Source of the DNA: Azolla caroliniana
Taxonomy: Eukaryota; Plantae; Polypodiophyta
DNA length: 35,280 nt
Direction of reading: 5' to 3'
Assembly (NCBI GenBank): GCA_043228905.1
Contig: JBHGNT010000318.1
Location: 1 to 35,280, forward strand
Shown: piece after piece, positions 628 to 19,308 of the stretch
Layout: every line of letters begins with the position of its first letter
Position numbering within the stretch: the stretch's first letter is position 1
Notes under the pieces: model-generated
What the model was told of the DNA's origin: nothing
The model's database searches: none
The model's input: only the letters and a program-made list of their open reading frames with translations
Translations under genes and position numbers: made by a program

Positions 628-2047
628 TAGTCGTCTTCTTCAGAACGCTAGTTCTTTGCATTATGAGATTCTTCTTTTATATCCTCCACTTTCTGGGTTT
701 CATCAAGTCTGATTCTTCTTCTCGTCTCTCTTACTCGTATGCTTCGTTTGCAAAAGCAAACGCGTCTTTGCAGTAGACCTCTTCTTTTACAGAACTAATC
801 CCTCATCCTCTTCCACAGGTAGGGTTAATTCTTTCTGATCCGAAGACCTAGGGTTTTGTTCAAGTCTGTTTCGTTATCCAATTTCGATCATCAATTTGTC
901 CCACAGGATTTTGTACTCATATCAACAGATTGTTCCATTCTCTGATCCAAATCCGAGGTTTTGTTATCCACCAGGTTAGTACTTCTCTTTCTTTCCCGTG
1001 TCTAATTTGTTTTTATTATCATAGCAAAAGAAGCGCTTTTCATTCTCATTGCAAAACTGTTGTAATAAAGAAAATCAGTTTTAGCATTATTTCTGCAACA
1101 GCACAGGGGTAAACTTATATTTGGGTTTTTCTGTGCTAGTCCGTCTTTGTTTCTGATGGCGAAAGTTTTCTACATCGAATATTGAAATAGTTTAAACGCA
1201 AAATGCTTTTGAAATTCCTCCTGGTTGCTATTTCAGGGCAAGATTTCTAGTATAGTAATAGCGGTTCGAGTCTTACTTGTGCTCAAATGATCATCTGCCC
1301 ATGTTATGTTTTTTAAGTGTTAAGAGGGCCAGTTTTGTGATGTGAAGAGAATACCATTCCAAGGGATCTCCTCTCTGTTTGTATTTGCATGAAAGTTAAG
1401 GTATTCCTAGTCAGAGCAGTGATGCACCCAACCTTGAAGCTCAGGTTACCCCCTAGCATTAAGCAAACACTGGTTCTGACCCAGGACTTGTTCGTGCGAG
1501 TTCCAACCTTAGGAAGCAACAAACATTCTGCTTGAAAAGATCAGTATGAGTGTATTTGGTATGGTGCCGTCAAGCCCCTTTTGATGATAGTCTGTGTGAC
1601 ACCTTGCAAATGACTATCACTGGCTTGTTTCTTACACTTAACAGATTTCTATCAACATTTCCATGGAAGCTATACCTGAACTTTTCCTTGAAAATCATTT
1701 TTATTTGTCATAGCAAAGTTTCATGGCATAGCAATAACTCATAATCCACAAGAATATTTTTTACAGCATTTTCATTGAAAGGTCTAGATTTCTAGCAATA
1801 GAAAAAATAATGTAAGAGTGCCTGTAAGTTGTAAATTTCTATGGAATCTCACTTCGTAGTTTATATCTGAAAGCTGAAGCAGAGTCCTATTTTGTAGTCT
1901 GAATTCTTTCTTTATCTAAGAGAAGAATTTTTTAACGTAGAATAATAACACAATCAGATGTTTATTTCCATTTTCATTGATTCATCTTTTCTGAGCCGTT
2001 TTCTCTGGAATTGTTTTTCTTAATTCTCAGGGCAAAAAGGATAAATA

Positions 2048-2773
2048 ATGCAAAAAGACAATCCAATATTTATCCCTAGAGAATCTACTATTGTAATGCC
2101 CGATGCACCAACGATCTTACCGGTCGAACAACAAAAGTTTCGAGGAGTTAGAAGAAGACCATGGGGTCGATTTGCTGCTGAAATAAGGGATCCTGTGAAA
2201 AAAACAAGGGTCTGGCTTGGAACTTTCGATACTGCAGAAGATGCAGCTTTTGCTTATGATGCAGCAGCTCGTACCTTCAGAGGTAACAAAGCCAAAACCA
2301 ATTTTCCTTTCCCTTCTGGTGAGCAACAAAGCACCACTAGTCATAGTAGCACTGTTGAGTCTTCGAGTACACGAACTCCTAAGAGTTTGTCTCGTCGAAG
2401 TGGTGTTGTGACTTCAGCTCGAAGGAATGATAATGATGATGATAATGATGTTGGGTTAATGTCGATGTCAATGCATAAGAGAGTGCAAAAGGTGGCTGTG
2501 GTTGGGATCGACTCTCAGAGAAAGAGGCAAAGGTTGACAAATCCTATGACTCCCTTGTCTCTTTCTATGCATCGCTTTCCCCGAAATGTATATAATCATA
2601 CAGCTATTGACCCTTACCAAAGTGATTGTGACTCTTCCTCATCTGTTATTTTAGACACTGATGAGGCTTATTTACCTCAAGATCAGCCCAATACAACTTA
2701 TCCAAGACCATATTTGGACCTCAATTTTCCACCACCAGAGGAAGATGATTGCAGGTTGGATCTCTTTTTGTGA
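2048..2773 (+). CDS. AP2/ERF transcription factor, group VIIIa / class II repressor (ERF3/ERF7-like)
   Basis: 241-aa ORF with AP2 domain [55 protein letters not shown]. Also SSTVESSS and SDCDSSSSV motifs, EAR motif LDLNFPPP and terminal LDLFL (LxLxL). A polypyrimidine/cag acceptor ends at 2030, just before the ATG, implying a 5'UTR intron. Confidence 0.95.
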
Positions 2774-3228
2774 ATCATCCATATTGGTCCAAGTACAGCT
2801 TGTGCTTAGATCGTAATCGAAAATTGGCTTTACGATAGATGAGTCTTGTTTCCATTTTATTCTCTTTTTGTATATCATTCAAATTCACATGAATCTCCTC
2901 GCTGATAATCTCATCAGTTAAACCCAATGTGTTATTGGGAAATTTTAATGGAATTTCCAAATGCTAAATTTGTATCTATAGCATGGGTGCAAGCCTGTAC
3001 AGAAGCATGTCTTTTATGAAGAAAATTTATTATACATGTGATTGAGCTAAATAGAATCTGATATTTGAGCTGAGCTGTTGTTTTGTGGCATTACATATAT
3101 ATTGTTCATGACAGAAGGAATTTATAACTTAAAATTTGATCATTACATCCCATAGTATTTACATTGTTCTGCTTGACAATGCAAGAGACAAAAAGCACCT
3201 TTTTGTACCACTTTCTACTAGTGTCGCA

Positions 3229-3575: not shown

Positions 3576-3592
3576 TTAGGAAATCACTTTCT

Positions 3593-3966
3593 ATGGAGAA
3601 TGAAAGAAGATCAAATGTAGGAGCGCAAGCTTCAGCAAAGAATATTCATATGTCAGCTACTAAGGTGCGGCATGTCGCCAAGCAAATCCAAGGTTGTTCA
3701 TATGAAGAAGCACTTGTATCACTTGAATTTATGCCTTACAAAGCATTTATATGATATCACAATTGGTTCTTTCTGCAGCGGAAAATGCTGCTAATAATCT
3801 AGGATTCAAGAAAACCAACTTGTTCATTAGTGAAAGCCAAGTAGATAATTCCACTTACCTCAAGAGGTTTCAACCCCAGGCGCAAGGTCGTGGTTATCCT
3901 ATAAGGAAACCCACGTGTCGAATAACTATCAAGTCAAATTTTAGGTCACTTAAAGAGGGGACTTAA
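3593..3966 (+). pseudogene. rpl22: Plastid 50S ribosomal protein L22 pseudogene (NUPT), 1-bp frameshift near 3746
   Basis: [51 protein letters not shown], frameshift, then [62 protein letters not shown]. This is the L22 signature split across ORFs 3566-3754 and 3751-3966. No transit peptide and no introns. Confidence 0.92.
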
Positions 3967-4218: not shown

Positions 4219-6165
4219 GTTAGGACATTGCGCAAAAGCAGAATCCATTTGTGTGTCATAGTAGATCGGGCGACTATGTTTCCATTATTTTCCCTAGGAT
4301 CCCACCCAACTCTTCATGGCATTGCTTTACATGAGGGATTATACAATAATCGCTCATCCTACACATGTACGAGGAGCTTAAGATTGGTGCATAACCTTAT
4401 TTGTGAGCACTGCATATAGAGCTAGGCATTACGAGCGTTATTAAATTGGATAGTTTGGAGGAGAATTAGTGACATGTAATAGGATTGTGGCTTTTATATA
4501 GTAGGATAATGATATATTATACATGTGCATTACGAGACGTTGGACTCAACACATAGCCGTTATAATAAATTTAATGAACTCCCACATGTGTTTGAAAGAC
4601 TCCTCAAACTATGGCGGAATCGGACATATAGAGCCATCAAAAGTTGTGTATGGTCAATCACAAAGCTTTTGATCATTGAAGTAAATATTATGTATCTACC
4701 CTATATATAACCCATGGGCCATTGAAACAAGATTAACAACCTCATAAGTCTTGTTCATCAAAGTTATACAAAACATGAGACTATTGAGCAACAATGAACT
4801 ATCGTGAAGCACATGATGATCATTGATGAAGTGGTGGAGATGAACTACATTAATAGTGATATTATGGGATGCTAATAAATGTGGCGAAGATGAGTGATTA
4901 GTACAAACACCATACATAATGCTATGTTGACAAGACAACCTCATCCCTACATAATTGCGTCAAAGTAAAACTCTTTATTGAATGCTCTAATTAATTTACT
5001 TCAAGATCAAATCACTTTAAAACAAGTTTATTGCAACAATCCACGACCGATACTCTTGCAAACCATCTTATAGCTTTGCCATATTTTTTTCTTTATCGAT
5101 ATAAAAATCAATTCCATTACAGCATCCATGCCATTGTTACAAGTTTTTGTCCTTGTAATCTCTTCAAACAATCTATATATAGTCAATGCCCAACATGAAT
5201 CATCCTACAAACAACATACTCATGTAATTCTTCTGAATATCATCATATTACATCCCTTATTTCCAATGGGGATGCTAATATCATAGACCATTGCTTGTGT
5301 TTAAACTGAAATGCTCTAAAACTTGCACAGGTCATTACAAGGGTTAAATAATGTACAGAAACTTAAGGTGTGGATGCATTTAGGAAATGCAGGACGTATT
5401 AACACAAGAAAGGTTAAATGGAAGTTTCTCCTTTCAATATGCAATGTTGAATGAAACTACACTCCATGTACTACCACCATTTATGTCACAAACAGCTATT
5501 ACATGTATAAAACAATGGGAAAATATGGAAATACCCATAAGTTTTTGTTTATTTCCCCAAATGCTCTTGTTATTCACTGACAGCAATTATATGTGCTATT
5601 TAAGCAATTCCATGATTACTCCAACAGTTGACCGAAGGCATTTCAGGGAAAAGGAAACTCATGTGCATTTAGGGAATTAAAGAGAAACACAATTGTTTTA
5701 GAGTTTTCCTTTAACATGATAAGTAGGCATATGAAAACACTAGTACCTTAGGTTTCTTAAGGAAAAGATGGTGACAAGAAAGAGGTAAACTAAGCATGGC
5801 AAGTATCTTAACATTCATGCTTTTGACTGTGGGGTTGATGTGCCATAAGGAAACTTTTTTGTGGAAACAGAATAAACTTCACGTCCAAGTATATGTGAGT
5901 GATGAGCGAAGGATGATTGATGTCAATGAGAAAAAGAAAAGCACATTACAAATTATAAACAGAATGCAGAGAGGGTAGGCGATTAATGTCCGGTTAAATA
6001 TACAAACTCTGTACATGTGACACATTCATATTTCTTCCTCGTAACATTCAAGGCACTTTGCATAGTATGTTTTACCTCACGGCAGATGGCATATATAATC
6101 ACATGTCACATATACATATTTATACTGAAAGAGTAACCCCACCAAGGATTGTAACAGTAAATAAT

Positions 6166-8494
6166 TTATTGTTTCCACCTCGGATGGGTGACAAACTGTG
6201 ACTGACGTTGTTTCCTTAGGGTTGCAAACCTTGAGTCCAAAGTTTGTAGCTTCTTAAAAGCTCCAATAACCTGGTAATAGTAATCATATAATCAAGAAAA
6301 GTGCAATTCAGATATGTAAGAAATCATTGCTGATATACTAACTTACCTTGTTTGAACCCTCAGTTGTTTGAGTAAGTGTTTTCCGTAATGGTGGAGATCT
6401 CCACATTGTTGAATGCCTTCTATCTACCCTCATACTGTAGAAAAGTTAAAAAACCTTTAATCTTCAAAACTCTGCACAATGAAGTTATACTTTTATTGCT
6501 TTCAAAATGGATACCAACAATCCTAGAGGAAAATGGAGATTTAGTTCATCCCGACAATAAAGATTGATCACCATGAGGTCCTCTAAAACAATGTCATCCA
6601 TCCAATAAAGGTAATGTGTTCTTTACACAGACGAACATTCAAATGATTGGGTTCAACATCAAATCACACATTAAATCCTGAATATTGATGCGCTACCTCT
6701 CAACCGATTCAGACTTTGAGATGCAATATCTAGCTTCCTATTCACAGCAATATCTAACATTTGAAAATGTTGCATATTCATCGCAAGCACAATGTTATCC
6801 AGTATAACTATCCACACATAGAAGTCATTCGATAATATGTTGCCATACCCCTGTCAAACCTAGAGAAGAGAAAAAAAATGTGTTGCATTTTCTGATGTAG
6901 TCAGTAGCAATGCCTACTGAATGAATAAGTCCTGGATCCCTGAAGAGGCCTACCACGGTGACAGATACTCAGGTATTTCTCCACTATTCAGAACTCAACT
7001 AACAAGTAAACGTCATTATCTGGATGTGGAGTCTTTACATTGTATATGAAGCCATTGCATCGTGCTGAATAATTGATTCTGTGTAATAACTCACTTAGTT
7101 AACTGAGAGACATGTGATATCTTCGAATTCTGTCCCGGAGTGTCACTTGGATGCGTAGTTCCTTTCAGAGTCTTCCTGGAAACAAATTCAATGATATTTC
7201 TAAGATATGAACCTTGTCGATATATATGTAACTCCTTGTTGATGGATCTTCTTGGGATACAAGTACCTTAACCATCTATTTGATAAAGTGTTAATATTGT
7301 TGGATAAAGCTTGCTGAGCAGCCACTTTGGTTTCTATGAAATTAAAACTTCCATTGCGAGATCTTGACTCAGAGAATTTTCCCTGCTCATTTGTAATGAT
7401 CAAATTTTAAGTTATAAATTCCTTCTGTCATGAATCACAATCAAACAAGCTAGTAACCGTGTTTTGCACCAGTTCATATTATAAAGAAAGGTACAAAGCT
7501 CCATAAATTCCTTTAAACACCTGACGAATTGCAGAGGACCACGCTGATATAATTCCTTGTACAAAATCTTTCCTTGGTTTTACATTTCTCCTCTGATTCT
7601 CTTCTCTAATCAGTTGTCGTTTTCTCTGGTAAAGGCTCTGGGGGTGATCTTGTGGTTCTTGACTTTGCCCATTAAAGGATTTCTTATTTGTGTCTTTTAT
7701 CTGACCATATAGTGGAAATTCTATGATCAGGCTCCAATAAAATTGCTCTTTCCTTCAAAAATATCACGTCAAAGACATGGAATATAGATATTAATTACCT
7801 TAGACTGATTGTGCCGAATGACCTTCCCTTTGGATTGCCTGATGATATCATCTGCAATACAAAAGCCAAAATTGCAACAAGAAATATTTTTTACAATAGA
7901 GTATTAAGTTTGTTGATTCAAGTTTATGAAATGTTAAGATCAATAATTTGTGTGAATAGATTCTTTATGTAAAGTATACAAATTCAGAAAGAACAAACTG
8001 GATTGCAATCAATGCAACAAAAATAACATCAAAGGAAGTTTTCTGATTTTCGTAAGATTTTGAAGGATGATATTCCCTTTTTTAAGAGGATTGTGATGAA
8101 AACTAGTAACTTATTTCGATGGTCAATCTAGAAATTTAAATCAATGGGAAGGATTGATTTGATACTAAAGGTGTTATGCATTTTTTGTTTCGTAAGATTG
8201 ATGAAAGATGCTTTATATTCTCTGAATAGGCGCAATGCAAATCCATAAGGGTAGAAAGAGTCGAAAGAAGAGATTTTTTGAGAAGCGTTTTGATGAGATC
8301 CATAAAAAAAGGATCAGCAAGGCAGCATATAACAAGAATAGATTTCTTGAGAAGTGCAGATAACTTTGACAGTTATATATCAACAAGGCAGCATATTTTG
8401 GTTATAAGGACATACGTAGGAATTACTTACCAAGCGACATATCGACCTTGCGCTCAATGCTATCCATGTTGAACTTCAGAGCTGAGGAAGACAT
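6166..8494 (-). CDS. UAP56-interacting export factor (UIEF1/2-like) mRNA export adaptor, spliced
   Basis: GT-AG exons 8494-8431, 7851-7799, 7700-7521, 7382-7267, 7175-7095, 6434-6347 and 6270-6166 splice in frame; extra small exons between 7094 and 6435 are possible. Product: MSSSALKFNMDSIERKVDMSL|DDIIRQSK (ALY/UIF-type UAP56-binding motif) ... AWSSAIRQ|GKFSESRSRN ... QTLDSRFATLRKQR...WKQ*. These are the three blocks I recall from plant UIEF proteins. Confidence 0.8.
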
Positions 8495-9847
8495 AGCCAA
8501 AGCGATGGCGAAGCGAAGAAGAAGAAGAAAGAAAGAACGAAATAAAGAAGGATTGACCACCACATTCGTTGATGCTGCTGCCTGCACATTTGGTTTCACA
8601 CTTGTCCGGACAAAACGCGACAGCCAGTCCTTTCACACCCACCAGTTCGGACACCCTCAAGATTGAACGGCCTAGCTGGGACAACATTACAATAAAAGAA
8701 AGTATCGTTTATGTCTCTCTATTGGACGACACCAATGAGACCAAACATGTGCATGCACACACGCATGGGCTTTATGGCCTCCTCGATAAACGAAACAGAA
8801 AGCACCAGCATAAACCCTTGCCTGACCAACCAAAACCTTTGAAAATGTTTGTTTAGGCATGTCTTTCACTTAAAACAACCGTGAATGGATTCACCGTTGG
8901 CCTCTTTGGCACGTCGAACTTGCATGGGTTCACCGGTGTTAGAACACAGTCCACAAAAAACAGCATAGGTTAGATGTCATCGAGGGAACATGGTAAGCCC
9001 ATATTCATTTGTGCATCCGTAAGGGCTAGGCATGTAACGAGGTATGGGTGGAGAAAGACCTGAAAAGCAAGGGTTGAGCCTGTTTAGATAAGAGTATGTG
9101 ACTTGACTTTTTGAATCAAATTGAATTGAAAGGTGGTAAATTGGCACAAATCGATTTATTGAAGGAAGCATAAAGGCTTTAAGTAGCAACACGAGGCGCA
9201 AAATAGCGTTCTAAGAAAGATGAACAACCTGCCGCCTTTTTTTCATAACATTGCAATGGTACAAAAGTGTGGAGATTTGGAAATAAATTGGCTCTGCAAA
9301 CTAGTAGTCACAAGATTGGCTACAAACATTGACAATGATTGGGCTTCTTTCCATACCAAGTTGATGATAAACTATAACATTACATAATAATGATACCTCA
9401 AAAGGCCATGTGAAAGTGACACTTGCGGTTGGAGGTTCGAGGGCTCTTAGACCTCAGAACCTTGACAAGGGTTTGGGATGCTTCCCAGATTGACTTGATG
9501 AGAAAACTATCTTTAAAATGTTGCCCATTCACACAACCATCAAAGAGTGGACGATGTTGCCAATAAATGCTTGACATTCGATTGAGACCTTCATGCGTTG
9601 GTAAAAAAGATGAGGAACCATGTGACCGAGCATGAAAAACCATACGGCTCTCTCCCCCTTTAACACACATGTCACCTAGAGACGTGTATGCCTATACATA
9701 TATGTACATATACGTACGGGTGTCCATATACCTATGTATCCGGACGCGAACGAGAACCCTCGACAACTAAACTAGAGGCCGACCCTAAACTTGGAGGCAC
9801 CACCCAGCAGGCACCAAGGGCATGTTAAAGAAGTTACAGTAAATGAC

Positions 9848-10087
9848 ATACATACATATATCATATATGTATGTATGTATGTATGTATACGAGTTGTTTG
9901 TTATACATATATCACGCTGGCTTCGTTGGTGTCATTCCTTTCTCTTCAGATATGGCCCCTGCCACGACCTTCTCCCCTCCTGAGACCCTCCATTTCAACG
10001 TCGGCTCCACTGAATCTACAGCAGCAGCAGGTTTTCGTCTTCCTCTTTCCTTTTTTGTATACAAACATTCTTATGTATGTATGTATG

Positions 10088-10121
<34 letters not shown>

Positions 10122-10170
10122 TGTATGTATGCATGTATGTATGTTTGTATGTATGTGTATATGTATGTAA
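9848..10170. repeat. (TATG/CATA)n microsatellites
   Basis: Runs at about 9848-9890 and 10073-10170, flanking the first coding exon of the plus-strand gene. Confidence 0.95.
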
Positions 10171-12037
10171 TATATCTGAGAGAACATGGTTAATATATAT
10201 GTTAGAATGGGTTATTTCAATAGTTTTGCAAAAGGTTTCATTTTTCCACATCCACATACACGCATACATACATACATGTCACAGAACATGGTTTGGGCAT
10301 TCCGTGAAACGAATCATTTCAAATTCTGCATAGGATGTGATGTTTTTCAAAGGGTTCGATAAATTTTTCCCATAATTCTAATGATTTTTTTTAGATGAAC
10401 CGGTTTCCTCCTGAAGTTGATCAGGAGTAGTTGTTTCTCTGATGATTTGGTTAACATGATGGTTTTCTTCTTGTGTTTTTCTTACGGAAATCCTCGAACT
10501 AGGGTTTTCTTCTCTTATCTATTTCTATGATGATTTCAAAAGATAAGTTACAACTAGGTTTTTTTCTGAACATTAAACTCGAATTGCAGTGGCAGCCAAA
10601 CTTGCCAAGAAAGTGAAGAAGCAACGTCTTCCTGTAAGTTAAAAAACATGTTATTCTTTGCTTTCATTTTCACTCTCAATTAATATTTTCTTTTGTTTTC
10701 CTTTATATCCCAATAAATATGTTTTTCTTTTCTATCTTTTTTTGCGTGCAATGCAATTTTGCAGATAAAGAGATCATTTTGGAAGTCAATCAGAGGTCAG
10801 GCAGCAAAAGCTGCCACTCGTAAATCGATGCTTAATCGATCATCTTTGCTCCGCCAGGTAGAAAGTCCTTTTCACTATTTTTATCATCTAATGTTGTGTG
10901 GATGTAGTGGGAATTAACCTACATTTTTACACCCTAATGTGGTATGAAGGTGGTGAATAATTAACCTATCTCTTTACTTTCTACTAATGTGGCAAGGAAA
11001 TGATGGGATAACCTTCCTCTTTCTCACCTGATGTGGTATGGAAATGCTGGGAGTTAACCTTCTTTAATAACTAATGTTGTACAGAAGTTGTGTAATTACC
11101 TTTTTTTTTACTACCTGATGTTTAATGGAAATGCTGGTAGTTAACCTTTCTTCGAGTTTAATTAAGATTATACTGGAAGTGTGCATCTTCAACAGGGGCA
11201 CATTTCATCTGTTTTTGAGTCGAAGAAACATTATTATATGGGTTTGATGGCTAAATGCTTCACATAATATACGTTCTTACAAGCTTCTTTTAAGGTTATA
11301 TTTTAGGTTTGCATCAACAAGTGATAAAAGAGTTAGCTAGCCCAATGAGGTTGGAGACATGAAGGAAAACTTGAAGCTTTGTTTTTTCTGATTGGAGATT
11401 TCATCTCTTGTTTGCAGGGTAAATTTGCTGAAGCTAGGTCACGTAATACTGATGGAGAGCTGTCTAATGAAACCAGGTAAAGCTTATTCAAGCACCTTGC
11501 TCAAATGTGAACTACAGACTTTCTATGTCTTGGTTTCCCAAAATTGTAAGAAGTTAATCTTTCATTTTGCCCCAGGGATTAAAGAAACTATTAAATCTTT
11601 CCTACTTGGATAGAAAGAATTTCAAGTGGGAAAAGCTAAAAGACATTTCTATCAAGATATATGAAATACAGTGTACATTTTTATCTAACTAATAGCTAAT
11701 CTCTTGCTAGGCATATGGGGATTATCCCCTTCGTAGCATCCTTGTACTTATTTATCTAACAAATAGATAATGTTCAATTGCCATATGGGGATTAGCCCGT
11801 TTTCGTAGTTTGTTACATGATTTTTAGGAATGTCTGTTTGACGATCAACAATACAATGAAGGAATACTAACATGGATTTCATGCAATAAGTTAATTTTAA
11901 CATAGCTTGTGAATGTGTATTGTGATCTGCATTCATGTCTCTGCAGGTTATTTTGTAGAAGTACATTCCACTTATTTCCTCTGCATAGGACTGATGTGAA
12001 ACTTAGTGCACTTGGCGTTGCTTTTTCTGAATGTTAA
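9952..12037 (+). CDS. Divergent UIEF-like paralog lacking the canonical UAP56-binding motif (about 107-121 aa; 3' end uncertain)
   Basis: GT-AG exons 9952-10030, 10590-10633, 10765-10857 and 11418-11476, then 11989 (or 11947)-12037. Product: MAPATTFSPPETLHFNVGSTESTAAA|VAAKLAKKVKKQRLP|IKRSFWKSIRGQAAKAATRKSMLNRSSLLRQ|GKFAEARSRNTDGELSNET|R... Intron phases 1,0,0,2 and the SS..RQ|GKF.E.RSRN junction are shared with the minus-strand gene. Confidence 0.7.
10888..11150 (+). repeat. Degenerate intronic minisatellite, about 6 copies of about 45 bp
   Basis: Recurring unit ct(a/g)atgt(g/t)gtatggaaatgctgggaattaacct followed by a pyrimidine tract. Confidence 0.8.
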
Positions 12038-14686: not shown

Positions 14687-17600
14687 TCAAAACCTAATAA
14701 GGTCAGAAACAAGTTCATTGAAGAGGATGCGGAGTAGTGTCCGCTCAAGTGTGAACACAATGTGGTCGATTTCCGGTTGGAGTTCATTCCAACGAGATAA
14801 GTTGGTTGCAACAAGCCAATCAATGTCATCGACATGGGGCCGTAGTTGTGTACCACGAGATGAATTGTCATGAAGGTTGTGGGGGTGGCGACTCCACCTT
14901 AGGATCCGATCATGGAGTCGACAAGCCAAAGTGCTACAAGGGCCCCGAAACCGACACACGCCAGTGCCGCAATGCCACCATCGGCTTGGTCCTTCTTCCT
15001 CTTCATGCATCGCGTCTCTCACACAATCGAACACCAACCTACGATAGTCCCGAGTGGGGGGCCCACCGGGCCCCGTCCACATGGCAGGTCCAGGTGGGCC
15101 CACTCTAGCTTCTTCTTCTAGTTTCTCGAACAAGACCGAATTGCTTCCGTTGCCCATGCCGCTCTCCTGCCACATGGCGCCCAGCACGGCGGCCACGTAA
15201 TCGCGCTCGCTGCAAATGCGCCACGTGGCATGCGAGTCTGGGGACACGTCATCTCCGAAGGGCGGGCCCAGGACGGAGACCGGGCTGTGTAGTTGGAGGC
15301 CCAGGGAATCGGACGTCCCATCGCTTTCGTGGTCCTAAAAGAGATTTAATTTCGTAAATCAGTTCAAGAAAGAGCACCCCAAAAAATGCAAAATAAAAAA
15401 CAATAAAAGAGATTTAATTCCGTAAATCTGGAAAAAGAAAACGATTTATTTTCCCGGTTTTTCTCACCAATCTGGTTATGACATCGAAATAAATAAAAAC
15501 AAATGAATGGGATAGAAATTGCTTTAGTGCGTGCGGGTGACACATGAGAGTGTGTTCGGTTCTTCCCACGTGCGAGCACAAAAAACACAGATTCTATTCG
15601 GCATTAAAAAAAACCAAGGTCGTGGTTAGTGTGTAACTTTACCCCTGGGGCGGATTCGGATGTTTTGTGATCGTTAATTTTACATGCTTGGTTAGGATCA
15701 TTAGATTGATCCGCTTTCCTCTCGTTCCATAGTTTTAAGTCTAGGGAGGGTCGTCTAGACTCTAGACTTTAAAGTAAGGGGACATTCTAACCGAATATGC
15801 GTATGCACCACCACCAAATCTAACTTTTGTTTTCTTTCCTTCCTTTTTTTTTTTAAACCGACAAAAGAGCACCAAGATCCTCGCTGACAGCAACAGTGTA
15901 GTATGTGTACGGTATGATTATGAGAGGGGGGGGGGCGAGGGTATTACGGTAATTTTTGGAAAGCTGTGGGGGGGGGGGGGGGGGGCACTCTCGTGAGAAA
16001 AAAAACAAAGGTTCTATTTGGTTTTTCTTTTTCTTTTTTTTTATTTGTACTAACCTTGGTGGTGGTGGTGGAACCGGCTGCTGGTCGCTGGCCTCCGGCA
16101 TAGCTCTTCCCGGCCATTGGGGAGGACACTGCGGAGACAATGTCCCGCAATATGGCCGCCGCAGTGGTCTTCTTCACACGCCCCCCACCCGCCTTATGCC
16201 CGCACACCTTCTCCCTTCCCATCATTATTATTCCACGATTACCACCATCTTCAGATCCCCATCCTTCTTCTGCATTCACACCTATTTTCTTCCTTTTTAC
16301 AGTCCCACCGGATGATGCCGCCCCAGCCCATACTGGAGAATTCGTCACTACCATTGGCCGTGCTAACCCGCCTGAGGTGCAGGGAACCACAGCAGCTGAC
16401 ATAATAGCGGTAGAGCTGGAGGAAGAATACAGCCCAGAATGACTGTAATTGTTATGTTGCTGCTGCCACCGACAATTACTGCTACTGCTAGTACTACTGA
16501 CGGATGAAGAGGAGCTCGATCGAACATTGCAGCTTACTCCGGTTGAATTGGAGTAAGAGATCTTTGATGAGGCCTCGGGGTAGCTACTGGTTGAGCTAGA
16601 TGAGTACTCGCAGTGCTTATATCGATCATAATCATCATCATCTCCATCATTATCGTATGATACCTGAGGCTGATCCCCTCCATGCGTATATGGGAAGAAC
16701 TGATTAACGATCGGCGGTGGTACATATCCATAATCAGTGATTGATTTGCAGGACAGATTCGAGCCATATATGGACGACGAAGACGAGAAATTATTGTTAT
16801 AGCGATCATTATAAGGCTCATCATAACATCGCTTCCCTTTGATCACATTATAATTGACATCTGAATATTTCGCATCCACTTTCATCCTCCGCTGTTGCTT
16901 CTGCTTCTTCTTTTTCTTCTTTTTCTTCTTCTTCTTATTGGTATTGTAATAACTTCTGTTATAATAATCCCCAATTTCATCGTCTGATGAATCAGACTCT
17001 AGTAATCCAATATTGTTTATTATAATTATATTCCTCTGCAATTCCATTTTTACTTTATCCTTACCATTATAATATGTTGGTTGAGTTTCCACGCTCTTCT
17101 TCTTGGTCTTTTTGATATTCTTATAATTATGTGATCTCATCGAACCAGTGGCAGCCCTGAACATGCTTAGCTTTGCATCCAATTTTATCCTTCTTCTCTC
17201 TTTAATCATTGATGGCCATCCATTATCACTGTAATCACGATGCTTCTGATTATACTTATATTGCCCATCCATCATGATATCATTCTGAGGAGAATCATCT
17301 TCATCCTCCTCCTCCGCCTGATCGTTATAATCTTCATCATTACTCCTTAAATCGATGTTATTATTAACGCAAGCCACATGGTGCATGTGTTGATCGTTAA
17401 TTGTAACATCTCTGCAGGTCCTCCTATGGAGGAATGCTTCGGTAGTTTCAGTCAAGTCGTGGCACGCAACACTTTGCTCGAGCTTATTATTATAATAATT
17501 AGGGTTTATAGCAGATCTTGAGATCATATGATTAAAAGTATACTTCCGTGGCCGAGAGCTAGAATCTTCTTCCTTACCATTACGATAATTGAATGGCCGG

Positions 17601-18951
17601 ACATTAATTATATGATCCCTTGCCGATTGTTTATCATCACCAAAATTCGTTGAATGATTACAAGCTCCCTGCATAGTTGATCTCTTCTTATGAACACGCT
17701 TAAATATCTTCAAATCCGCTGTTTCTTCTACTTCTTCTCTTATGGGATTATAACTTGATCTGGATGTGATGTAGCCATGGCCAAGATTATTGCACTGATT
17801 ATTATGATGACGATGATGAAAAGCTCTCGCATGAATGGGAGGAATGTATTTCTTGTCATTTGATTTTTTATTGGGCAGAGAATGCAAACCCATTAATCTG
17901 CCCACTAATCCTGGTTCATTAATACAGCTACCATTTGATGAGTCGATCATATTCTTTATATCCTCACGATCTACTGGATCGCTACTAAATTCGAAGTTTC
18001 CTTCTTCTTGATTATTATGCTGTTTACAGTTGAGCACCTTGCTTTCATTTTCCGTTGTAGTCTGCAACGAAAAGTTACAATAAATCATGGTAAGTAACAG
18101 AACATCGATAGATCATTAAGCGTGGGGGTCACTGTTAAGTATGCGATTACAGTGTAATGCAATTTTTGTAATTAGACGAATAAATGCAGCGGCTGAGGTT
18201 TACAACAAGATGTACTAAAATAAGTCCTGAGTATATTACAAGATTCAGACTTGTTGGCGCCATTTCTGCTTCTTCTGCTGCTCCAATCATTTCAATATCC
18301 TTTTGCTGGTCAGCATCATTTCTCTGAGCTGTGATAGAAAACAATTAAAACACATAAGAACTACAAAAAACGCGGGCCGAATGAATGCATAAGAGTGCAT
18401 CTTTACATGATCTGACTTGTTCTGAATAGAGTAATTTAACCATTTGTAAATAAATGTATACCTGAATGAGGAGAAGGAGGGGGTGGAGGAGGAGGAGGAG
18501 GAAGATTAATGGGGCAATGGCTGTTAGATCTAGGGCTAGCGTTAGGGCTAGAGTTAGGGCTTGGGTTAGGGCTAGGATGAGGATTAAGATGAAGATGAGG
18601 AGCAGGAGTAGGATTAGGATTAGGATTAGGATTAGGATAAGGATTTGGGTTAGGGTTTGCGTTAGAGTTAACATCAGAGCTAGGGTTGCTGAGGTTGGAG
18701 TTAGGATTACAGCTGGGATTAGCGGTAGGCCTATAATTATGATGATGGTGGTGCTTGTGGGAGGAAGTAAAGAAACGTTTGGAGTGAGAGAGCTTCCTGT
18801 TGAAGTGAAAGAGTTGGAAGAAGACATGGCCAACAGAACCACCGATTCTGGAAGCTGCTGGAATGATGGTATAGCTCAATTGCTTGTGATCATCATCATG
18901 GTGACCACCACCATTCAGATGATGACTATTATTACAGAGCATTTTGTTCAT
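14687..18951 (-). CDS. TON1-recruiting-motif (TRM)/LONGIFOLIA-like protein (VARLMGL motif plus DUF4378), about 1077 aa
   Basis: Exons 18951-18462, 18328-18240 (donor less certain), 18061-16055 and 15334-14687 splice in frame. Motifs in TRM order: GSVGHVFFQLFHFNRKL..KRFF, PGLVGRLMGLHSLP, HSPVSVLG, DYVAAVL, RRLVFDCVRDAM, and terminal EIDHIVFTLERTLLRILFNELVSDL. Confidence 0.88.
18480..18720 (-). repeat. Coding hexamer/trimer repeat: (AATCCT/AACCCT)n encoding Asn-Pro repeats, plus (CCT)n poly-Pro
   Basis: ggattaggattaggattagg... on the + strand. It translates as NANPNPNPYPNPNPNPNP...PPPPPPPP in TRM exon 1. Confidence 0.9.
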
Positions 18952-19308
18952 AGCAGAAGAAGAAAGTAGTAATATTATTGAATCAGTACATACTGAAAGA
19001 ATTCAATTCTCTAATTATATTCATTCTGGTGAGAGAATGAGTGAGAGTGAGAGTGAGAGTTTCAAAGAAACCAATAGAAAATCTCTTTTTAGAGTGTTGG
19101 AAATGTTTAATATGAAGAGGGGGGGGGGGGAGTGTTGATAAGGAATAAGTTGTGAAAATTAAGCCATTCCAATGGTTGGTTTCACACACGCAGCTACAAT
19201 GACTAAAGTCGAGGGAAATGTCCCGTAGCTCCATCACCTCTAAGCCTCGGATTGCCGAAGACCCCATTCACATGGACTTAAGTGGTAGACAAAACAATGT
19301 CTAAATGC

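What the first reader, a model, noticed from the sequence alone, without database searches (positions are those of the whole stretch)
6166..12037. Head-to-head pair: intact UIEF mRNA-export adaptor and a paralog that lost the UAP56-binding motif (candidate decoy or microProtein)
Seen: two spliced genes, both missed by the ORF track, point away from each other with ATGs about 1.46 kb apart (8494 -, 9952 +). They share intron phases 1,0,0,2, an exon 3 beginning IK, and the junction SSAIRQ|GKFSESRSRN versus SSLLRQ|GKFAEARSRN. Their first exons align (LKFNMDSIE vs LHFNVGSTE) up to the motif, where RKVDMSL|DDIIRQSK becomes STAAA|VAAKLAKK. I could not find the TLDSRF C-terminal block in the plus copy. 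Its four clear exons have no stops or frameshifts despite strong divergence. Established: DMSLDDII is the UAP56-binding motif (UBM) of ALY/REF and UIF/UIEF adaptors in the TREX pathway. Inference: an old inverted duplication left a short basic protein that may keep RNA or partner binding but cannot engage UAP56. It could be a co-regulated competitor of mRNA export, or a neofunctionalised RNA-binding protein.
Basis: partly seen in the sequence, partly recalled or inferred. Interest (0 to 1): 0.8.

Follow-up and report, generated by a model that had tools for sequence, protein, structure and literature searches.

The report
Export-factor duplicate lacking its helicase hook
A land plant carries two back-to-back, spliced copies of a likely mRNA-export adaptor gene that have kept different parts of the ancestral protein: one keeps the hook for the export helicase UAP56, while a 93-residue copy lost that hook but kept a conserved central motif, so it likely does a UAP56-independent part of the adaptor's job.

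Summary
The head-to-head pair is real. RNA-like contigs join all six introns of the minus gene (228 aa) and introns 1-4 of the plus gene. The plus ORF ends at 11582 (93 aa), or 11480 if intron 4 is retained, not at 12037. Both genes are homologous to plant UIEF-like proteins and share three intron positions with an unnamed plant homolog. The plus copy lacks the UAP56-binding motif (UBM; 1 of 11 conserved residues) and everything past the start of exon 4. New point: it is the better-conserved copy in the four other blocks (25 of 36 residues, against 14 of 36 in the 'intact' minus copy), and the UBM was erased separately on two exons. That fits selective loss and a division of motifs better than decay. 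I favour partitioning: the plus protein likely carries UIEF's central motif to RNA or a non-UAP56 partner. A decoy role is possible but untested. A Diphasiastrum protein also lacks the UBM, but apparently through a shifted frame, so it may be independent or an annotation artefact. No genome was held, so other UIEF copies and dN/dS of the plus gene are unknown.

The parts
8431..8494 (-). Minus gene coding exon 1 (ATG at 8494; ends in the first half of the UBM, DMSL)
   Evidence: sequence; joint 7851/8431 in X1
7799..7851 (-). Minus gene exon 2 (second half of the UBM, DDII)
   Evidence: joints in X1 and X2
7521..7700 (-). Minus gene exon 3, 60 aa, twice the length in homologs; only its last residues are conserved
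7267..7382 (-). Minus gene exon 4 (GKF block plus the conserved tail that the plus gene lost)
7095..7175 (-). Minus gene exon 5
   Evidence: joints in X1 and X2
6347..6434 (-). Minus gene exon 6
   Evidence: joints in X1 and X2
6166..6270 (-). Minus gene exon 7, coding part (TLDSRF block begins at 6243; stop 6166-6168); protein 228 aa
   Evidence: same block in homolog L002
8963..9242 (.). Multicopy repeat between the two genes (approximate ends)
   Evidence: DNA-like run X3 depth 250 in bin 9008-9341 against 3-5 over the minus gene
9952..10030 (+). Plus gene coding exon 1: keeps FSPP and F.VGSTE; the first half of the UBM is replaced by STAAA; non-consensus donor GTTTTC
   Evidence: joint in X1 and X2; X2 contig starts at 9931; donor
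10590..10633 (+). Plus gene exon 2: the second half of the UBM is replaced in frame; lysine cluster (candidate nuclear localisation signal, inferred) and conserved KxRxP end
10765..10857 (+). Plus gene exon 3: conserved basic segment ending RSSxxRQ
   Evidence: 10 of 17 conserved residues kept
11418..11476 (+). Plus gene exon 4: GKFAEAR block (9 of 10 kept), then divergent; stop at 11478-11480 if intron 4 is retained (92 aa)
11576..11851 (+). Plus gene last exon: stop at 11580-11582 (93 aa), then 3' UTR covered by contigs to about 11850
   Evidence: joint 11476/11576 in X1, loose ends in X2

Best explanation
The two genes are spliced paralogs of a plant UIF/UIEF-like mRNA-export adaptor that kept complementary motifs after an old inverted duplication, and the 93-residue plus protein likely performs a UAP56-independent part of the ancestral job. 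Shown: the minus copy keeps the UBM, the exon-4 tail and the C-terminal TLDSRF block; the plus copy keeps the segment before the UBM, the exon-2 end and the exon 3/4 block, and has lost the rest. Inferred: the minus protein is the UAP56-binding adaptor. The plus protein is likely nuclear (basic lysine cluster), would not bind UAP56, and likely uses the conserved exon 3/4 basic motif to bind RNA or a second UIF partner. FACT/SSRP1 is the best-known candidate: it loads human UIF on mRNA partly without UAP56. The plus protein would thus supply, as a separate small protein, a contact that the minus copy is losing.
For: Of residues identical in two outside homologs (L001, L002), plus keeps 25 of 36 in the four non-UBM blocks and 1 of 11 in the UBM (Fisher p=0.001); minus keeps 14 of 36 and 8 of 11 (plus against minus p=0.017 and p=0.008); exon-4 tail: minus 10 of 22, plus 0 of 22. 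The UBM is split by intron 1 and both halves are gone by in-frame changes on separate exons, so no single deletion explains it. Synonymous sites between the copies are near saturation while the shared block is 12 of 16 identical. Plus is spliced at GT-AG sites in two studies, and both intron-4 isoforms stop within two codons of each other with no intron downstream. The exon-5 acceptor and stop show no listed difference in relative X3 (most of that contig's 22 differences are listed). Human UIF needs its UBM for UAP56 binding but also binds RNA, SSRP1 and NXF1 (PMC2828547).
Against: The minus copy still keeps the core of the shared block (7 of 10 at the start of exon 4), so the partition is one of degree. 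The blocks were chosen after viewing the alignment and rest on two close outside homologs. No genome is held: a third, fully conserved UIEF may exist and would change the reading. The function of the exon 3/4 motif is not described in any paper that I could read. Translation of the plus mRNA is not shown. Present-day selection on plus rests on one synonymous difference.
Confidence: 0.42

Rival explanations
1. Decoy or microProtein: the plus protein occupies the RNA or partner site used by full-length UIEF but brings no UAP56, and so dampens export of some mRNAs.
For: Size (10.2 kDa) and origin by duplication and domain loss match trans-microProteins (PMC9638782, Introduction). The loss is precise: UBM out, flanks kept. 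It sits next to its paralog. A second UBM-less, TLDSRF-less protein of similar layout is annotated in Diphasiastrum (P0005).
Against: The neighbour has lost much of what plus keeps, which weakens direct competition with it. No dimerisation domain is described for UIF in the papers read. Co-expression is not shown, and a repeat separates the genes. Overexpressed full-length UIF also blocks export (PMC2828547), so an overexpression phenotype alone would not prove a decoy.
Confidence: 0.2
2. Relic: plus was a normal UIEF for most of its history, which explains the conserved blocks, then lost its UBM and C-terminus and is now a transcribed gene in decay.
For: About 60% of the ancestral length is lost; intron 4 is partly retained; the intron 1 donor is non-consensus; no ortholog with the same replacement was found.
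Against: 10 of 11 UBM residues changed, over two exons, while 25 of 36 flanking residues stayed (p=0.001), which uniform decay does not predict. The ORF is open. The last-exon stop appears shared with relative X3.
Confidence: 0.2
3. New job: the plus protein left mRNA export altogether and works as a small basic nuclear or nucleolar RNA-binding protein.
For: Both export-linked end motifs are absent; 19 of 93 residues are K or R; the replaced segments are new sequence.
Against: What is conserved is precisely the ancestral UIEF sequence, which suggests an ancestral partner.
Confidence: 0.15

Closest known systems
Arabidopsis UIEF1/UIEF2 (Ehrnsberger et al. 2019; not held, seen only as cited in PMC8421220 passages)
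   Same: Duplicated plant UIF-like genes. The minus gene has the N-terminal UBM-type motif and the C-terminal TLDSRF block found in plant homolog L002.
   Different: Both Arabidopsis proteins are reported to bind UAP56 and RNA. Here one copy lacks the UBM and is 93 aa, and the pair is head-to-head. I did not compare directly with Arabidopsis sequences.
Human UIF/FYTTD1 (PMC2828547, section 4 and passages; Pfam PF07078)
   Same: One N-terminal UBM, basic, no RRM. Outside homologs reach FYTT weakly (Atlas 0.90; Pfam E=0.056).
   Different: The plus gene is a natural equivalent of the UBM-deleted construct, further truncated. No natural UBM-less paralog appears in the papers read.
Plant trans-microProteins such as LITTLE ZIPPER (PMC9638782, Introduction)
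   Same: Own gene, 5-20 kDa, arose by duplication and domain loss.
   Different: These keep a known dimerisation domain and mostly target transcription factors; no such domain is known here.
Diphasiastrum complanatum O6H91_14G062200 (KAJ7531870.1; P0005)
   Same: UIEF-like, 150 aa, no UBM, no TLDSRF, FSPP start, and the same 20-residue spacing across the lost UBM as the plus protein.
   Different: It keeps the exon-4 tail. Its UBM replacement matches a shifted-frame reading of the normal exon-2 codons (run of 5, reached by 28 of 2000 shuffles), unlike the in-frame change in plus. Orthology is unresolved.

Membership tests
UIF/UIEF export adaptors (minus gene) | N-terminal UBM of the ALY/REF type | tested here: met
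8 of 11 residues shared with outside homologs.
UIF/UIEF export adaptors (plus gene) | N-terminal UBM of the ALY/REF type | tested here: not met
   1 of 11; best ungapped match anywhere in the protein 3 of 12; motif scan blank
UIF/UIEF export adaptors (both genes) | Homology and shared intron positions with plant UIEF-like genes | tested here: met
   Local scores 114-150 against P0008 and P0005, none of 2000 shuffles above 66; L003 has introns at the same three places
UIF/UIEF export adaptors (both genes) | C-terminal TLDSRF block | tested here: inconclusive
Present in minus and L002, absent in plus.
UIF/UIEF export adaptors (both genes) | Match to Pfam FYTT (PF07078) | tested here: inconclusive
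   0 of 9 exon pieces and 0 of 4 homologs; L002 13.2 bits, under the cut-off of 21; Atlas lead 0.90 for P0008 with low recognition
UIF/UIEF export adaptors (both genes) | Binds UAP56 and RNA; needed for mRNA export | not testable with these tools
trans-microProtein (plus gene) | 5-20 kDa, own transcribed gene, duplication with domain loss | tested here: met
   10.2 kDa; spliced contigs; criteria from PMC9638782
trans-microProtein (plus gene) | Keeps a protein-interaction domain and binds or inactivates the related larger protein | not testable with these tools
   No such domain is annotated for UIEF; needs Y2H, pull-down and genetics
Pseudogene (plus gene) | Disabled ORF or uniform decay | tested here: not met
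   Open 92/93-codon frame, GT-AG introns, uneven conservation; dN/dS among orthologs could not be computed
Bidirectional-promoter gene pair | Close divergent starts with shared regulation | tested here: inconclusive
   ATGs 1457 nt apart; contigs cannot give start sites or levels; repeat in between

The most novel reading that the evidence does not exclude
Seed-free vascular plants have an old class of UBM-less mini-UIEF proteins (this gene and the Diphasiastrum protein) that hold the central UIEF motif on nascent mRNA or FACT while excluding UAP56: a natural, gene-encoded brake on TREX loading, and a microProtein-like regulator of mRNA export.
Probability: 0.12. Interest if true: 0.8.

Novelty: new variant of a known kind. 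Interest (0 to 1): 0.47.

Why it matters
For UIF only the UBM had been mapped, by homology (PMC6177440, passage). A natural 93-residue paralog that dropped the UBM but kept three other blocks isolates a second, UAP56-independent module in plant UIEF and hands over a ready reagent to find its partner. If it restrains export, it would be a regulatory layer on plant TREX that I did not find in the searches made. If it only shares the work, it is a clean case of a disordered adaptor dividing its short motifs between duplicates.

Tried and rejected
No whole genome is held, so gene copy number and synteny were not tested. Three word-index protein searches with single exons were blank, as were an Atlas search with exon 7, the PDB searches for this family and two exact look-ups of the ERF ORF; blanks from short queries are weak. 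Of 5 proteins from the profile search, P0003 and P0005 are homologs; P0002 and P0004 were read and dropped as unrelated repeats, and P0001 (3018 aa) was dropped unread. Of 5 loci, L005 is a bacterial chance match. The run search listed no holder on record as RNA; X1 and X2 are treated as RNA because their contigs skip GT-AG introns; X4 laid nothing. Contig depth was not used to rank expression. X2 shows two versions of the plus 3' region (identical and about 93%) but one contig over exons 1-4 with a single synonymous change; this could mean a conserved CDS or just assembly collapse, so it is not counted. X3 covers plus exons 2-3, but the exon differences were among the rows not shown (154 of 194). 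A tree with the UBM columns grouped plus with P0005 (86/86); without them 76/77, and the two alternatives were not rejected (p-AU 0.26 and 0.20). A two-copy complex prediction of P0008 residues 1-110 gave no verdict. Earlier-findings look-ups found nothing on this family. Literature: searches (UIEF; 2-3 papers each) showed no UBM-less UIF/UIEF paralog; the main UIEF paper is not held and it or its supplements may map other UIEF regions. No supplements were read.
Full report
Observation. The window holds two divergent spliced genes. Contigs of run X1 join all six introns of the minus gene (coding exons 8494-8431, 7851-7799, 7700-7521, 7382-7267, 7175-7095, 6434-6347, 6270-6166) and run X2 joins five of them; the product is 228 aa. 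For the plus gene, X1 and X2 both join exons 9952-10030, 10590-10633, 10765-10857 and 11418-11476. Intron 4 (11477-11575) is spliced in an X1 contig and in X2 loose ends, and retained in others. The two forms stop at 11582 (93 aa) and 11480 (92 aa). The runs are only guessed to be RNA; the skipped GT-AG introns are the evidence. All ten introns are GT-AG. Phases 1,0,0,2 are shared.

Homology. The two proteins share the exon 3/4 block (12 of 16 residues) and part of exon 1 (p=0.003); exons 2 and 3 alone are not significant between them (p=0.99 and 0.15). The duplication is old: 8 of the 12 identical residues use different codons and the gene regions do not align as DNA. A profile of the two exon-4 pieces found 5 proteins at E<=0.001, two of them true relatives: P0003, whose cluster holds the 241-aa P0008, and P0005, a Diphasiastrum complanatum protein. 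A metagenome scan added L001 (encodes P0008), L002 (70% identical, with both DMSLDDII and TLDSRF) and genomic L003, which has introns at the same three places as the window genes. The organisms of L001-L004 are not given. The family name rests on the motifs, on an Atlas lead (Streptophyta clusters 0.93-0.94, UAP56-interacting factor/FYTT cluster 0.90, recognition below the tool's mark) and a sub-threshold Pfam FYTT match for L002. Earlier AI notes call this genome a likely fern (unchecked); my own data say only land plant.

What each copy kept. Counting residues identical in L001 and L002, in exon-anchored blocks: before the UBM, plus 3 of 5 and minus 2 of 5; UBM, plus 1 of 11 and minus 8 of 11; exon-2 end, 3 of 4 and 0 of 4; exon-3 end, 10 of 17 and 5 of 17; exon-4 start, 9 of 10 and 7 of 10; exon-4 tail, 0 of 22 and 10 of 22; TLDSRF only in minus. 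Outside the UBM and tail, plus keeps 25 of 36 and minus 14 of 36 (p=0.017); within plus, UBM against the rest gives p=0.001. The blocks were defined after viewing the alignment, so the p values are descriptive. The UBM spans intron 1 and both halves are replaced in frame in plus; a new first exon could not restore it. Among the listed X2 differences (40 of 281 rows shown), 8 fall in the minus CDS, 6 of them changing a residue, about the neutral share of 0.73; 1 falls in the plus CDS and is synonymous. These counts are small and incomplete, but they do not show plus as the faster-changing copy.

How it most likely works. In human UIF, deleting the UBM prevents UAP56 binding, while the protein also binds RNA, NXF1 and SSRP1, and its loading on mRNA falls only 50-60% without UAP56/DDX39 (PMC2828547, section 4 and passages). 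The ALYREF N-UBM docks on its own site on the UAP56 RecA2 lobe (PMC12823420, passages). [quoted passage not shown] So plus very likely cannot engage UAP56 (inference from homology). What it kept is ancestral UIEF sequence, most of all the basic exon 3/4 segment, which implies an ancestral partner: RNA or a protein such as SSRP1 (a guess; no binding site is mapped, PMC6177440, passage). Because the neighbour has eroded these blocks while keeping the end motifs, I rank division of labour first (0.42), then decoy (0.2), relic (0.2) and unrelated new function (0.15). Against the first: minus still has the core of the shared block, and a third full-length UIEF elsewhere in the genome cannot be excluded.

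The Diphasiastrum protein. P0005 also lacks the UBM and TLDSRF, and matches plus best of all pairs involving a window gene (score 150), with the same spacing across the lost motif. But its replacement resembles the shifted frame of normal exon 2 in minus, L002 and L003 (run of 5 residues, 28 of 2000 shuffles), so it is either an independent loss by compensated frameshift or a gene-model error. A five-sequence tree without the UBM does not decide orthology. It is a lead, not proof of an old class.

Co-regulation. The ATGs are 1457 nt apart, with a multicopy repeat near 8963-9242 and TATG microsatellites in and beyond the gap. A shared promoter is neither shown nor excluded. Relative X3 holds pieces of both genes, but no listed contig bridges them.

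Novelty and verdict. Truncated paralogs and microProteins are known kinds (PMC9638782, Introduction). A natural UBM-less UIF/UIEF gene did not turn up in the literature searches, though the main UIEF paper was not available. The plus gene fails the defining UBM test for an export adaptor and cannot yet be filed as a microProtein. Verdict: a real, spliced, selectively pruned UIEF paralog; new variant of a known kind; interest 0.47.

Noticed in passing
window 3105-3147 and 7392-7434: A perfect 43-nt inverted repeat: a piece of intron 3 of the minus gene, just before its acceptor, is copied 4.2 kb away downstream of the ERF gene. Probably a recent small duplication.
   Followed up: no
window about 3590-3960 (+): Plastid-type ribosomal protein L22 sequence (Pfam PF00237, E=1.5e-15) split over two frames near 3740 with a stop in the first; likely a nuclear pseudogene copy.
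   Followed up: partly
window 2045-2773 (+): AP2/ERF gene (PF00847) with a C-terminal DLNF EAR-like motif (label recalled); probable 5' UTR introns upstream.
   Followed up: partly
window 15944-19002 (-): Large gene with a VARLMGL motif (PF14383), TRM/LONGIFOLIA-like by recall, with long N/D/K runs and an upstream frame rich in NP repeats.
   Followed up: no
window 9935-9949 (+): A pyrimidine tract plus CAG just before the plus ATG looks like a splice acceptor, so a 5' UTR intron is possible; the X2 contig runs unspliced across it from 9931.
   Followed up: partly
minus gene CDS, 6166-8494: 6 of the 8 listed X2 differences change a residue, near the neutral share; the UBM-bearing copy may be under relaxed constraint in its middle part.
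   Followed up: partly
run X2 over 6030-7124 and 11508-11763: Two sequence versions (identical and about 93-95%) are both present, as in a hybrid or allopolyploid.
   Followed up: no
P0005 (Diphasiastrum KAJ7531870.1): The annotated protein reads the start of exon 2 in what looks like a shifted frame; possible gene-model or assembly error, or a real compensated frameshift.
   Followed up: partly
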